From a virus (taxonomy: Duplodnaviria; Heunggongvirae; Uroviricota; Caudoviricetes), in the IMG/VR virus record IMGVR_UViG_2778261594_000011, positions 1-7,586 of that record: DNA of 7,586 nt. One strand, written 5' to 3'. The notes beneath the pieces were generated by a model. The model ran no database searches. It worked only from the letters and a program-made list of their open reading frames with translations, and was not told the DNA's origin. Both the position numbers and the translations under genes were made by a program. Positions 4,215 to 7,586 of this stretch are shown here, piece by piece. Position 1 is the stretch's first letter. Every line of letters starts with the position of its first letter.

Positions 4215-4290
4215 TGATGCTGCCGGACGGGTGGGGGGGAGTTTTCAGGACAAACCCGCCCCCGTCCAGAACCGACCGCCTCCTCAAATT
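4215..4290. other. Candidate cos / terminase recognition region (GC-rich inverted repeat followed by an AT-rich tract)
   Basis: Inverted repeat GGACGGG (4226-4232) / CCCGTCC (4261-4267) flanking a G7 run and a C-rich run, followed by AT-rich sequence up to the terS start. It lies in the 289-bp HNH-terS intergenic gap, the position of cos in HK97-like genomes. Positional inference only. Confidence 0.25.
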
Positions 4291-4337
4291 TTTATGCACG
4301 GGAATTTTTTGAAAAATAATCTGGCGAAAAAATAAGC

Positions 4338-6352: not shown

Positions 6353-6634
6353 ATGACAGAAGCCGAAATACTGCGATTAATCCGCCGCGTCTCTGGAATC
6401 AGCCAGCAGGCTGACGAACAGACCACGCAGCCGGACAGCGTGACAGCCGAAAATTATGCGCGTGTTGTTGCTGAGGTGATGCGCCGTGATGGTATCCAGC
6501 TTAATGATGCGGATATGCGCGACATACGGATCCGCGTTCTGGAAATGCTGGCCTACAATCGCCGCGTTGAACTGTATCGGGAGAAGGAGAAAATCACGTA
6601 TCACTGGAAGAAGCCGGAGCGGTTACGGCGGTAA
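6353..6634 (+). CDS. Hypothetical small protein (93 aa), last gene of the packaging operon
   Basis: ATG with a GAGGT RBS ~8 nt upstream, 13 nt after the terL stop. The protein is charged and Arg-rich with no motif I recognise. Coding status rests on ORF length, the RBS and operon context only. Confidence 0.5.
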   Translation: MTEAEILRLIRRVSGISQQADEQTTQPDSVTAENYARVVAEVMRRDGIQLNDADMRDIRIRVLEMLAYNRRVELYREKEKITYHWKKPERLRR

Positions 6635-6678
6635 CTTGTTGATTAAAAGGCGGCTCAATTCTGAGCTGGGTAGCTGAC

Positions 6679-6719
6679 GGCGGTAACTGTTTGATATTCC
6701 CGATAACGCAAAATTGCGC
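6679..6719. repeat. ~41-bp direct repeat, copy 1 (GGCGGTAACTGTTTGATATTCCCGATAACGCAAAATTGCGC)
   Basis: Direct sequence comparison with copy 2 at 6861-6904, which differs at a few positions. It contains the 17-bp motif gGTAACTnnTTGATATT and a short terminal palindrome (CGCAA-AA-TTGCG). Confidence 0.8.
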
Positions 6720-6774
6720 TGGCTACATCCCTCACATCTGAGGACTGTTAACCAGCAGGCCGGAATATATTCAC

Positions 6775-6797
6775 AAACTACGAAATTTTCGTAGTTT
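6775..6797. repeat. 23-bp near-perfect palindrome AAACTACGAAA-t-TTTCGTAGTTT (operator-like)
   Basis: 11-bp arms that are exact reverse complements around a single central base; located between the two ~41-bp direct repeats. Confidence 0.85.
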
Positions 6798-6860
6798 AAT
6801 TACTCGCCAGTTTATCGTTAACTAGTTGATATTTTCGGAAACCTCAATTTGAGGAAGTCG

Positions 6861-6904
6861 GCGCGGTAACTGTTTTATATTCCCGATAGCGCAAAAATGC
6901 GCGG
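6861..6904. repeat. ~41-bp direct repeat, copy 2 (GCGCGGTAACTGTTTTATATTCCCGATAGCGCAAAAATGCGCGG)
   Basis: Imperfect direct copy of 6679-6719. It is preceded by the palindrome CCTCAA-t-TTGAGG (6842-6854), which mirrors GCTCA-attc-TGAGC (6650-6663) ahead of copy 1. Related partial motifs occur at 6629-6645 (GGTAACTTGTTGATTAA) and 6820-6836 (GTTAACTAGTTGATATT). Confidence 0.8.
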
Positions 6905-6966: not shown

Positions 6967-7019
6967 AAAAAGACGGTTTAACCGTTCATTAAAAATCGAC
7001 GTGATTTTGTGCTTTCCGG

Positions 7020-7038
7020 ATGACGTGGCCAACGTCAT
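7020..7038. repeat. Palindrome ATGACGT-ggcca-ACGTCAT
   Basis: 7-bp perfect inverted arms with a 5-bp spacer, followed by a T6 run; a related GACGTGAT lies at 7001-7010. Confidence 0.75.
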
Positions 7039-7354
7039 TTTTTAGCGAAAAATTCTGATTAAGGTCACTGGCTGAATGGTCATAATTACCACGCAGACCA
7101 TCGAGGCAACCATAGCGATCATCGTTACGGTTGGAGCTTTTCCGCCATTGGTGGAAAAGGTGCACATCTGGATCATCATTACGGTGATCAAGGGTATGTA
7201 AAACCCACCTGGCTGATTAAAGGTTAACCGGAAAAAAAATCCGGTAGCCCCGTTATGGGGATCCCCATATCGACAGCAACGCCTCCTTAAAATTACCCGC
7301 CTTTATATTTCTTGTGCCTATTTGTTCCACGTTGTTTCATACAGTGCACCGAAC

Positions 7355-7378
7355 GGTGTAGTCACTGGTGTAGTCATT
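7355..7378. repeat. Tandem 12-bp direct repeat GGTGTAGTCACT / GGTGTAGTCATT
   Basis: Two adjacent 12-mers differing at one base, ~75 bp from the putative element/host junction. Confidence 0.8.
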
Positions 7379-7421
7379 TTGCGAATTTTGGCACTTTCTC
7401 AGTGAAAATTGCTTAATTAAA

Positions 7422-7586
7422 TCAATGCACTATGCGGGATAAGTTATATATAACAGCAATAAATAATGCGAGAATAAACGGCACGATGATCTCGGCGGCA
7501 AAACGGATACCGCAGAGAATAATGACCAGCATTCCCAACATAATGACGATTTTTAGGCCATTGAGCGTGATGATCGGCTTTGCCAT
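7422..7586 (-). pseudogene. tqsA: 5' fragment of a tqsA (ydgG)-like AI-2 exporter gene, truncated after ~45 native codons
   Basis: The minus-strand ATG at 7584-7586 opens an ORF translating [45 protein letters not shown], which matches the TqsA N-terminus as I recall it, then continues IYNLSRIVH and stops at 7422-7424 (54 codons against ~344 aa for intact TqsA). The gene start is at the window edge, so the promoter and upstream region are not visible. Confidence 0.55.

What the first reader, a model, noticed from the sequence alone, without database searches (positions are those of the whole stretch)
6775..6797. Near-perfect 23-bp palindrome with 11-bp arms between the direct repeats (operator-like site)
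Seen in sequence: AAACTACGAAA t TTTCGTAGTTT, with arms that are exact reverse complements. An 11-bp arm symmetric site is far longer than expected by chance in 7.6 kb and is the typical footprint of a dimeric helix-turn-helix repressor or activator. Its position between the repeated modules suggests a regulatory switch, for example control of a divergent or downstream promoter or of excision.
Basis: seen in the sequence. Interest (0 to 1): 0.45.

Follow-up and report, generated by a model that had tools for sequence, protein, structure and literature searches.

The report
Phage antirepressor-gene palindrome copied into satellite
The 23-bp palindrome is real, but it is not the island's own repressor operator: it is a non-coding copy of a palindrome that phage antirepressor-type genes keep inside their coding sequence, and it sits in an array of similar copies with IHF sites at the end of a phage satellite, where it probably binds a helper-phage regulator.

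Summary
**Observation:** confirmed. AAACTACGAAA-T-TTTCGTAGTTT lies at 6775-6797 and is the longest palindrome in the window.

**Context:** the window is the right half of a capsid-forming PICI satellite inserted in E. coli tqsA. The palindrome lies in the ~790-bp non-coding tail after the last gene.

**What it is not:**
- Not cos. A block conserved across genera sits between hnh and terS.
- Not att. The Int arm repeats are more than 550 bp away.
- Not Rep-linked.
- Not a cI/Cro-type operator. There are no further half-sites and no promoter.

**What it is:** a ~35-nt patch shared with the 5' coding region of phage ANT/KilAC-type antirepressor genes.
- All 19 distinct phage alleles keep a perfect palindrome of 9-11-bp arms at the same codons.
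- The outer arms covary, and synonymous variation is frozen inside the palindrome (third codon positions variable at 1/7 inside versus 22/23 outside).

**Neighbouring units:** they follow the grammar "palindrome, about 10 nt, IHF consensus". One is homologous to a segment inside phage roi genes.

**Related islands:** the array is hypervariable, and some islands with identical terminases lack the palindrome.

**Most likely function (inferred):** a two-fold symmetric DNA site for a dimeric helper-phage Roi/Ant-type protein, working with IHF as a decoy or sensor.

**Rivals:** decaying recombination patches, or antisense/3'UTR RNA.

The parts
6775..6797 (.). The 23-bp palindrome P (AAACTACGAAA-T-TTTCGTAGTTT)
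   Evidence: Read directly. Longest palindrome in the window; 1 of 300 shuffles reach it.
6770..6815 (-). Patch homologous to the 5' coding region of phage ANT/KilAC-type antirepressor genes. It has 24 contiguous identical nt (TTAAACTACGAAAATTTCGTAGTT, which encodes LNYENFVV in the phages). In the island it is non-coding and antisense to the late operon.
   Evidence: Alignment 35/46 to Salmonella phage ST65 and 34/46 to Hafnia phage Pocitis76.
6819..6861 (-). Unit M2: palindrome CCTCAAaTTGAGG (6842-6854), a 10-nt A-rich spacer, and IHF consensus TATCAACTAGTTA (6819-6831). It is homologous to nt ~123-165 of phage roi genes (HK620, H-19B, Stx phages, Kapi1).
   Evidence: 37 identities, all within the 43 nt 6819-6861 of the 48-nt alignment, to HK620 roi, which has its own IHF consensus AATCAATAACTTA.
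6684..6718 (-). Unit M1: palindrome CGCAAAATTGCG (6707-6718), a 10-nt spacer, and IHF consensus TATCAAACAGTTA (6684-6696).
6632..6666 (-). Unit M0: palindrome GCTCAattcTGAGC (6653-6666), an 8-nt spacer, and IHF consensus AATCAACAAGTTA (6632-6644). The consensus overlaps the stop codon of the 93-aa ORF.
6867..6902 (-). Unit M3: palindrome GCGCAaaaaTGCGC (6889-6902), a 9-nt spacer, and a near-IHF consensus TATAAAACAGTTA (6867-6879, one mismatch). It is the direct-repeat partner of M1.
6730..6743 (.). A further short palindrome CCTCAcatcTGAGG between M1 and P.
6626..6902 (.). The whole array of palindrome/IHF units in the non-coding tail of the island.
6353..6634 (+). 93-aa ORF (phrog_1561, function unknown, no Pfam hit). 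It is the last gene of the island, and it travels with the array in E. coli islands.

Best explanation
**Shown.**
- The palindrome is a ~35-nt non-coding copy of a palindrome that one family of phage antirepressor-type genes carries inside its own coding sequence. These genes have an unnamed N-terminal domain and an ANT/KilAC C-terminal domain. The palindrome sits at about nt 157-179 of the gene, on the codons for (L)NYENFVV.
- In the phages the palindrome is selected at the DNA level.
- In the satellite it sits in a hypervariable array whose other units reproduce the 'palindrome, 10 nt, IHF site' segment found inside phage roi (Rha-family) genes.

**Inferred.**
- In the phage, the palindrome is the two-fold symmetric site to which the gene's own dimeric product binds, as an auto-operator. 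This is what was reported for HK022 Roi, which binds within roi next to an IHF site.
- In the satellite, the copied sites together with IHF-induced bends form a platform that binds Roi/Ant-type regulators of an induced or incoming helper phage.
- That binding would either titrate the regulators (interference) or report the helper's presence to the satellite.
- The palindrome at 6775-6797 would be the unit specific for the NYE(N/I)FVV class of these proteins.
For: **The island.** It is a capsid-forming PICI with int, an alpA-like gene, RepA, an HK97-type head module, HNH, TerS and TerL.

**P matches phage ant-type genes.**
- 31/34 in Vi II-E1 and ST65, 26/26 in Pocitis76, 24/24 in Klebsiella phages and 19/19 in the Stx2a phage F451.
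- There is one copy per phage genome.
- Homologues were retrieved through peptide anchors that lie upstream of the palindrome. All 19 distinct alleles carry a perfect palindrome of 9-11-bp arms.
- The core ACGAAAWTTTCGT is constant. The outer arms covary (AACTACG, ACCTACG, GGGTTACG, CATGACG), and this changes the protein.
- Third codon positions are variable at 1/7 inside the palindrome and 22/23 outside it, p = 8e-5.

**The neighbouring unit and the array.**
- Unit M2 is homologous to roi and includes its IHF consensus.
- Five more array units from related islands match JLK-2012 roi, SSU5 Ant, HK620 KilA-N, a Klebsiella Rha-family gene and a Fels-1 ORF6N gene.
- The only three perfect IHF consensus matches in the 15.5-kb island are in the array, all on one strand. 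0.26 are expected in the window, and 0 of 200 shuffles reach 3.
- Across 63 arrays there are 116 IHF-like cores on the minus strand and 20 on the plus strand. A palindrome ends 8-11 nt upstream in most units.
- One island unit differs from JLK roi by two compensatory double changes in the palindrome, while the spacer and IHF site are 26/27 identical.

**Literature.**
- Rha is detrimental for phage growth without IHF, and IHF regulates rha (PMC4936722).
- The title of Clerget & Boccard 1996 is confirmed through PMC3430580. That Roi binds within its own gene next to an IHF site is from my memory of the abstract.
Against: - No binding data exist for any of these sites.
- In the islands P is less well kept than in the phages. 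Only 8 of 32 copies are perfect, and the common variants have 1-3 asymmetric mismatches.
- P is absent from islands with 99-100% identical TerS/TerL, and from one with a 99% identical Rep.
- P lacks an intact IHF core at the canonical 10-nt distance. The nearest core is 21 nt away and belongs to M2.
- The phage genes that carry P have no IHF consensus nearby.
- M0, M1 and M3 have no counterpart in the phage collection.
- The experimentally shown helpers of the prototype island, HK106 and HK446, did not appear among the roi hits.
Confidence: 0.45

Rival explanations
1. Non-functional relics. The array is a graveyard of short patches picked up from phage roi/ant genes, by Red/RecA-type exchange or by template switching at palindromes while satellite and helper replicate together. 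The perfect symmetry at 6775-6797 is then simply inherited from the phage gene.
For: - P is imperfect in most island copies.
- Whole units are lost by recombination between repeated units in close relatives (L086, L093 and L103).
- Patches are only 28-47 nt long.
- The same tail is shared by islands with a different, lambda-cos packaging module.
Against: - The units keep a strict grammar and strand: 116 versus 20 cores, with a palindrome 8-11 nt from the IHF core.
- Palindromes differ between units by compensatory changes while the coding sense is lost.
- P is conserved at 21/23 between E. coli and Proteus islands whose flanks are unalignable.
- All seven matched patches come from one superfamily of phage regulator genes.
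Confidence: 0.25
2. RNA-level function. The array is transcribed as the 3' UTR of the island's late operon. Either its segments pair as antisense RNA with helper roi/ant mRNAs, or its hairpins stabilise or terminate the island's transcript.
For: - Six of seven matched patches are antisense to the phage gene when read on the island's + strand.
- No terminator-like site lies between the 93-aa ORF and the array.
- P folds at -9.7 kcal/mol, and the 296-nt array has z = -4.5.
- From general knowledge, antisense control of ant genes is established (P22 sar, P1 c4).
Against: - An IHF consensus is a double-stranded DNA feature and is the most conserved part of the units.
- The phage alleles show perfect Watson-Crick palindromes with a 1-nt centre and no G.U pairs.
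- The M1 and M2 hairpins are weak: -3.9 and -5.1 kcal/mol, z about -1.5.
- The KilA-N patch is in sense orientation.
- P has no U-tract after it.
- There is no Rfam match.
Confidence: 0.15
3. One reading: an operator for the island's own cI/Cro-like or AlpA-type regulator that controls a nearby promoter or excision.
For: Exact two-fold symmetry. In Proteus islands the same palindrome lies about 75 bp from the right junction, between arm-like repeats and the core.
Against: - No extra half-sites and no promoter-like site nearby.
- More than 550 bp from the Int arm repeats at 7355-7376.
- Present in islands with unrelated Rep, and degenerate (8 of 11 pairs) in an island with a 100% identical alpA-like gene (L099).
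Confidence: 0.05
4. A packaging (cos), replication (ori) or recombination (att) site of the island.
For: It is flanked by IHF sites and direct repeats, which superficially resembles lambda cosB, attP or iteron origins.
Against: - A block conserved from E. coli to Pasteurellaceae lies in the canonical place between hnh and terS (4222-4335).
- P is absent from islands with identical terminase genes and present in islands that use lambda-type cos.
- It shows no correlation with Rep type.
- The att arm repeats and junction lie at 7355-7427.
Confidence: 0.03

Closest known systems
Intragenic Roi-binding site plus IHF site of phage HK022 roi (Rha/Roi family; Clerget & Boccard 1996, abstract recalled from memory, paper not held)
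   Same: Unit M2, next to the palindrome, is sequence-homologous to the matching segment of roi genes. That segment comprises a palindrome, a 10-nt spacer and an IHF consensus. P itself is the equivalent intragenic palindrome of a sister family of antirepressor genes. Both are two-fold symmetric and lie in the N-terminal-domain codons.
   Different: In the island the sites are non-coding, multiplied and shuffled into an array, and no roi/ant gene is present. P has no IHF core at the canonical distance. Binding has not been shown for any copy.
Helper-regulator sites on satellite P4 (P2 Cox and Ogr acting on P4 promoters; general knowledge)
   Same: A satellite carries cis sites recognised by regulators of its helper phage, so that the helper's state is read by the satellite.
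   Different: The P4 sites sit at promoters and activate transcription. Here no promoter is evident, the sites copy intragenic phage sequences, and they form a variable array.
RIP/RIB-type BIMEs of enterobacterial chromosomes (an IHF site flanked by REP palindromes; general knowledge)
   Same: Repeated mosaic of short palindromes alternating with IHF consensus sites in a non-coding stretch after an operon, with variable copy number.
   Different: No similarity to the REP consensus. The units are found only in satellites and inside phage regulator genes.
Lambdoid immunity operators (OL/OR type)
   Same: A symmetric site about 17-23 bp long, suited to a dimeric helix-turn-helix protein.
   Different: It is a single copy, with no overlapping promoters and no adjacent repressor gene.

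Membership tests
cI/Cro-type immunity operator | Two or more related operator copies clustered at divergent promoters | tested here: not met
   No further half-sites beyond chance: 12 matches with up to 2 mismatches against 9.3 expected. No promoter-like site near 6775-6797.
cI/Cro-type immunity operator | Adjacent gene for the cognate repressor, with the site co-varying with that gene | tested here: not met
   The flanks are a 93-aa ORF of unknown function and non-coding DNA. The site is degenerate in an island with an identical alpA-like gene.
Roi/Rha-type intragenic auto-operator with IHF site | Sequence homology to the site inside the phage regulator gene | tested here: met
   P has 24 contiguous nt identical to ST65/Pocitis76 genes. 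M2 shows 37 identities within the 43 nt 6819-6861 to HK620 roi.
Roi/Rha-type intragenic auto-operator with IHF site | Two-fold symmetry maintained by selection at the DNA level | tested here: met
   19 of 19 phage alleles are perfect palindromes with covarying arms. Third codon positions are variable at 1/7 inside versus 22/23 outside. Symmetry is kept less well in island copies.
Roi/Rha-type intragenic auto-operator with IHF site | IHF consensus about 10 nt from the palindrome | tested here: inconclusive
   Met for M0, M1, M2 and M3 and for most units in 63 arrays. Not met for P itself, where the nearest core is 21 nt away, nor for the phage genes that carry P.
Roi/Rha-type intragenic auto-operator with IHF site | Binding by the cognate protein, stabilised by IHF | not testable with these tools
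   Needs EMSA, footprinting or ChIP.
HK97-type cos site | Located next to terS and conserved with the terminase/HNH genes | tested here: not met
   The conserved block lies at 4222-4335 between hnh and terS. P is absent from islands with 99-100% identical TerS/TerL.
attP arm or core of the island's tyrosine integrase | Proximity to the junction and to arm-type repeats | tested here: not met
   Arm repeats GGTGTAGTCA x2 lie at 7355-7376 and next to int. The junction is at about 7427. In Proteus islands the palindrome is about 75 bp from the junction, so this is left open for that genus.
Iteron origin of the island's Rep | Co-occurrence with a given Rep type | tested here: not met
   P is present with unrelated Rep proteins and absent with a 99% identical Rep.
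Intrinsic terminator | G+C-rich hairpin followed by a U-tract | tested here: not met
   The hairpin is -9.7 kcal/mol but A+T-rich and is followed by AATTACTC. It was not called by the scan.
Described RNA families (Rfam 15) | Covariance-model match | tested here: not met
   No match at E <= 1 anywhere in the window.
CRISPR array | Near-identical repeats separating unique spacers | tested here: not met
   The units are 65-93% alike, their spacing is irregular (48-135 nt), and the phage matches span both 'repeat' and 'spacer' parts.

The most novel reading that the evidence does not exclude
Enterobacterial phage satellites carry, at their right end, a rapidly shuffling library of operator mimics. 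These are copied from inside the antirepressor-type genes (Roi/Rha, Ant/KilAC, KilA-N, ORF6N) of many potential helper phages, and each is paired with IHF sites. The library would bind those phage regulators, to disarm them or to detect them. The palindrome at 6775-6797 would be one specificity in this library. As a corollary, a whole superfamily of phage regulator genes hides its own operator in the codons of its DNA-binding domain.
Probability: 0.3. Interest if true: 0.8.

Novelty: new variant of a known kind. Interest (0 to 1): 0.6.

Why it matters
How Gram-negative PICIs perceive and manipulate their helper phages is only partly understood. The papers I could search say that the helper activates alpA, but they do not say how. 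A satellite-borne array of sites copied from inside helper antirepressor genes would give a concrete, testable point of contact between satellite and helper.

The array could also explain how one island copes with many different helpers. The comparison further shows that several families of phage antirepressor-type genes keep perfect palindromes in their coding sequence at the cost of protein sequence. That points to widespread autogenous control of these often toxic genes.

The motif occurs in 655 of 5426 complete E. coli genomes, and no annotated feature lay under the match in any of the 30 listed hits.

Tried and rejected
**Explanations rejected**
- **Lambda-like cos.** The EcCICFT073 cos1/cos2 sequences (PMC6739421, supplementary Fig. 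S1) are GGGCGGCGACCT-type and unrelated to the repeats here. Such cos sites do occur in the sister islands L083 and L084, but upstream of the 93-aa ORF.
- **HK97-type cos at the palindrome.** Rejected in favour of the hnh-terS block.
- **Origin of replication.** No link to Rep type.
- **Int/Xis arm.** The arm repeats lie elsewhere.
- **CRISPR-like array and integron attC.** The grammar does not fit.
- **Pseudogene of a roi-like gene on the minus strand.** Homology is limited to islands of 24-46 nt, broken by a stop codon and a frameshift, and the units come from non-homologous domains.

**Searches that found nothing useful**
- Known RNA or tRNA: no hits.
- Viral-contig termini as evidence for cos: the IMG/VR contigs are mostly prophage calls from isolate genomes, so they were uninformative.
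- Full-text search for CGAAATTTTCG found nothing relevant.
- A scan for diverse roi homologues returned only near-identical genes, so it could not test covariation.
- The Clerget & Boccard 1996 paper could not be read.

Full report
**1. Observation**

The sequence at 6775-6797 is AAACTACGAAA-T-TTTCGTAGTTT, with exact 11-bp arms.
- It is the longest palindrome in the window.
- Only 1 of 300 Markov shuffles reached 11-bp arms with a spacer of 0-6.

**2. Context**

The last 1.3 kb matches E. coli chromosomes. Seven of the listed genomes carry the same insertion in tqsA. The annotated record shows a ~15.4-kb island with these genes in order: int, an alpA-like HTH gene, an Icd-like gene, RepA-family helicase, SSB, PerC, major capsid protein, HK97-type protease, portal, head closure, connector, HNH, P27-family TerS, TerL and a 93-aa ORF. 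About 790 bp of non-coding DNA then runs up to the junction.

This is the gene content of the capsid-forming PICIs described for EcCIEDL933 (bioRxiv 10.1101/2022.09.08.507074). The palindrome lies in the non-coding tail. No tRNA gene and no Rfam family is found. No promoter-like site lies near it.

**3. Sites excluded**

- **cos.** The hnh-terS intergenic region holds a block at 4222-4335 (GGGTGGGGGG...CCGCCTCCTCAAATTTTTATGCACGG..TTTTTTGAAAAATAA). It is conserved in 20 islands from Escherichia to Pasteurellaceae and Gilliamella. This is the canonical position for an HK97-type cos (PMC11331095). Islands with 99-100% identical TerS and TerL lack the palindrome (L086, L090, L092), keep a single unit (L093), or have no array at all (L103).
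- **Packaging type.** The same tail, palindrome included, occurs in islands of another type. These have a lambda-like capsid and decoration genes and lambda-type cos1/cos2 (L083, L084).
- **att.** The Int arm-type repeats GGTGTAGTCA x2 lie at 7355-7376 and next to int. The junction is at about 7427.
- **ori.** The palindrome occurs with unrelated Rep proteins and is absent with a 99% identical one.
- **Multi-site operator.** The island has no further half-sites beyond chance.

**4. The tail is an array**

The alignment of related islands and the sequences downstream of the 93-aa ORF show a hypervariable mosaic of short units.
- Read on the minus strand, a typical unit is a short palindrome, then 8-11 nt of A-rich spacer, then WATCAANNNNTTR, the IHF core consensus.
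- The window has three perfect matches, at 6632-6644, 6684-6696 and 6819-6831, all on the minus strand. The expectation is 0.26, and 0 of 200 shuffles reach 3. A one-mismatch copy lies at 6867-6879.
- These are the only perfect matches in the whole island.
- In 63 arrays (39 kb) there are 116 such cores on the minus strand and 20 on the plus strand.
- 29 of 50 distinct units have a palindrome with arms of at least 5 bp, and in most of them it ends 8-11 nt upstream of the core. The shuffled control gives 14%.
- The palindromes differ between units: CCTCAAATTGAGG, CGCAATTTTGCG, TCCCCCAATGGGGGA, TTCGCCGCTGGCGAA, TTCCACAGTCTGTGGAA and others.
- Units are lost and fused by recombination between repeats.

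**5. The link to phages**

- **Unit M2.** A search of 50,697 phage records with the array matched 6826-6861 inside the roi or 'antirepressor' gene of about 50 lambdoid phages (HK620, H-19B, HK75, Stx phages, Kapi1). In HK620 roi the segment is in frame (IRLPQIEVSERINNLG). It contains the palindrome CCTCAAATTGAGG, 10 nt, and its own perfect IHF consensus AATCAATAACTTA. It shares 37 identities with the window, all within the 43 nt 6819-6861 of a 48-nt alignment.
- **The palindrome P.** With its right flank, P matches genes annotated as Roi-like, antirepressor or KilAC in Salmonella, Hafnia, Klebsiella and Stx2a phages. The matches are 31/34, 26/26, 24/24 and 19/19. There it encodes (L)NYENFVV, or YYEIFVV, at about nt 157-179 of the gene. 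It occurs once per genome.
- **Other units.** Five further units from related islands match JLK-2012 roi, SSU5 Ant, HK620 hkbK (KilA-N), a Klebsiella Rha-family gene and a Fels-1 ORF6N gene. Seven of the nine phage proteins scanned carry pRha, KilA-N, ORF6N, ANT or ORF11CD3 domains; SSU5 Ant and F451 Ant matched no Pfam family.
- **Orientation.** Six of the seven patches are antisense to the island's late operon.

**6. The palindrome is selected at the DNA level in phages**

Homologues of the P-bearing gene were retrieved through peptide anchors that lie upstream of the palindrome.
- All 19 distinct DNA sequences carry a perfect palindrome of 9-11-bp arms at the same codons.
- The core ACGAAAWTTTCGT is constant.
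- The outer arms covary: AACTACG/CGTAGTT, ACCTACG/CGTAGGT, GGGTTACG/CGTAACCC and CATGACG/CGTCATG. This changes the protein (NYENFVV, TYEIFVG, GYEIFVTP, HDEIFVM).
- Among 13 alleles of one type, third codon positions vary at 1 of 7 sites inside the palindrome and at 22 of 23 outside, Fisher p = 8e-5.
- No G.U-type pairs are seen, and most palindromes have a 1-nt centre. This fits two-fold symmetric double-stranded DNA better than an RNA hairpin.
- Other families show the same habit. SSU5 Ant has an 11+1+11 palindrome and hkbK a 9+6+9 one.
- One island unit differs from JLK roi by two compensatory double changes in the palindrome, while the spacer and IHF site are 26/27 identical.

**7. Conservation of P in islands**

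- Copies of P were found in 32 of 165 loci. Eight are perfect. Seven have one T>C change in the right arm. Seven have three asymmetric mismatches. Four have a both-arm change with 7-bp arms. More variants appear.
- Proteus islands keep AAACTACGAAAgTTTTGTAGTTT, a 21/23 match, in otherwise unalignable DNA about 75 bp from the right junction.
- The motif occurs in 655 of 5426 complete E. coli genomes, with no annotated feature under the match in any of the 30 listed hits.
- Constraint in the islands is therefore real but weaker than in the phages.

**8. Mechanism**

*Shown.* P and its neighbour M2 are non-coding copies of intragenic palindromes of phage antirepressor-type genes. They are embedded in an array rich in IHF consensus sites.

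*From the literature.*
- Rha-family proteins are detrimental to phage growth without IHF, and IHF regulates rha (PMC4936722).
- HK022 Roi belongs to this group (title confirmed via PMC3430580).
- By my recollection of the abstract, Roi binds within its own gene next to an IHF site. The paper is not held.

*Inferred.*
- The palindromes are auto-operators for dimeric products of these genes.
- The satellite's copies, bent by IHF, bind such regulators from a helper, as a decoy or a sensor.
- I put this at about 0.45.

*Rivals.*
- Decaying recombination patches (0.25).
- Antisense or 3'UTR RNA (0.15). This rival is weakened because IHF consensus sites are a DNA feature and the M1 and M2 hairpins are weak (-3.9 and -5.1 kcal/mol).
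- cos, ori or att (0.03).

**9. Novelty**

Searches of the paper library for PICI, cf-PICI, cos, IHF, Rha, Roi and antirepressor found no description of this array or of the phage link. Satellites that carry helper-regulator sites are known (P4 with P2 Cox and Ogr, from general knowledge), and so is the Roi/IHF intragenic site. I therefore rate this as a new variant of a known kind, with a more novel reading, a shuffling library of operator mimics, not excluded.

Noticed in passing
window 4222-4335: A non-coding block between hnh and terS (GGGTGGGGGG...CCGCCTCCTCAAATTTTTATGCACGG..TTTTTTGAAAAATAA) is conserved in islands from Escherichia to Pasteurellaceae and Gilliamella. It is the likely cos site of capsid-forming PICIs, and no mapping of it was found in the papers searched.
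   Followed up: partly
window 7042-7203 (- strand): A small hydrophobic ORF of about 49 aa (...MMIQMCTFSTNGGKAPTVTMIAMVASMVCVVIMTIQPVTLIRIFR). It has a promoter-like site at 7202-7175 and a terminator-like hairpin at 6985-6973. It has no PHROG hit and is conserved in sister islands. It could be a small membrane peptide or a type I toxin-like gene. A convergent hairpin followed by T6 lies at 7018-7043 on the + strand.
   Followed up: partly
window 7355-7376 and L001 1778-1799: Tandem GGTGTAGTCA repeats lie at both ends of the island: about 50-70 bp inside the right junction, and just upstream of int. They are the probable arm-type integrase sites.
   Followed up: partly
L084 1260-1320 and 2150-2210: A different PICI type at phoQ has lambda-like capsid and decoration genes and a Nu1-like TerS. 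It carries a lambda-type cos1 and an inverted cos2-like copy immediately upstream of the same 93-aa ORF and array. The right-end module is therefore exchanged between satellites with different packaging systems.
   Followed up: partly
phage loci L239 (SSU5 ant, nt 68-90), L240 (HK620 hkbK, nt 160-183), L218/L238 (roi, nt 128-144): Several unrelated N-terminal DNA-binding domains of phage regulators (pRha, KilA-N, ORF6N and others) carry strong palindromes, up to 11+1+11, inside their coding sequence. This may be a general and, as far as I could find, undescribed feature of this gene class.
   Followed up: partly
L067, L068, L071, L075, L078, L079, L081 (50-190 bp upstream of terS): Related islands in Pasteurellaceae and Gilliamella have CTCAA(N2-3)TTGAG palindromes between the cos-like block and terS. 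L075 also has ACGCAAAATTGCGT. These are the same palindromes as in the E. coli array. The cos block itself contains CCTCAAATTTTT.
   Followed up: no
L003, L005, L009, L010, L053, L054 (just after TerL): In other genera a lambda gpI-like tail-assembly gene lies between TerL and the homologue of the 93-aa ORF (C-terminus ...W(K/R)KPE(R/S)(L/V)RR).
   Followed up: no
L001 3241-3269: A palindrome with 12-bp arms (AAAGGCATAAAAcaagaTTTTATGCCTTT) lies between int and the alpA-like gene. It is probably a bidirectional terminator.
   Followed up: no
L098, L102, L120 arrays: A hairpin AAACTACGG-aaactac-CCGTAGTTT has the same outer stem as the palindrome studied here but a 7-nt loop. L216 carries a tandem duplication of the palindrome core.
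   Followed up: no
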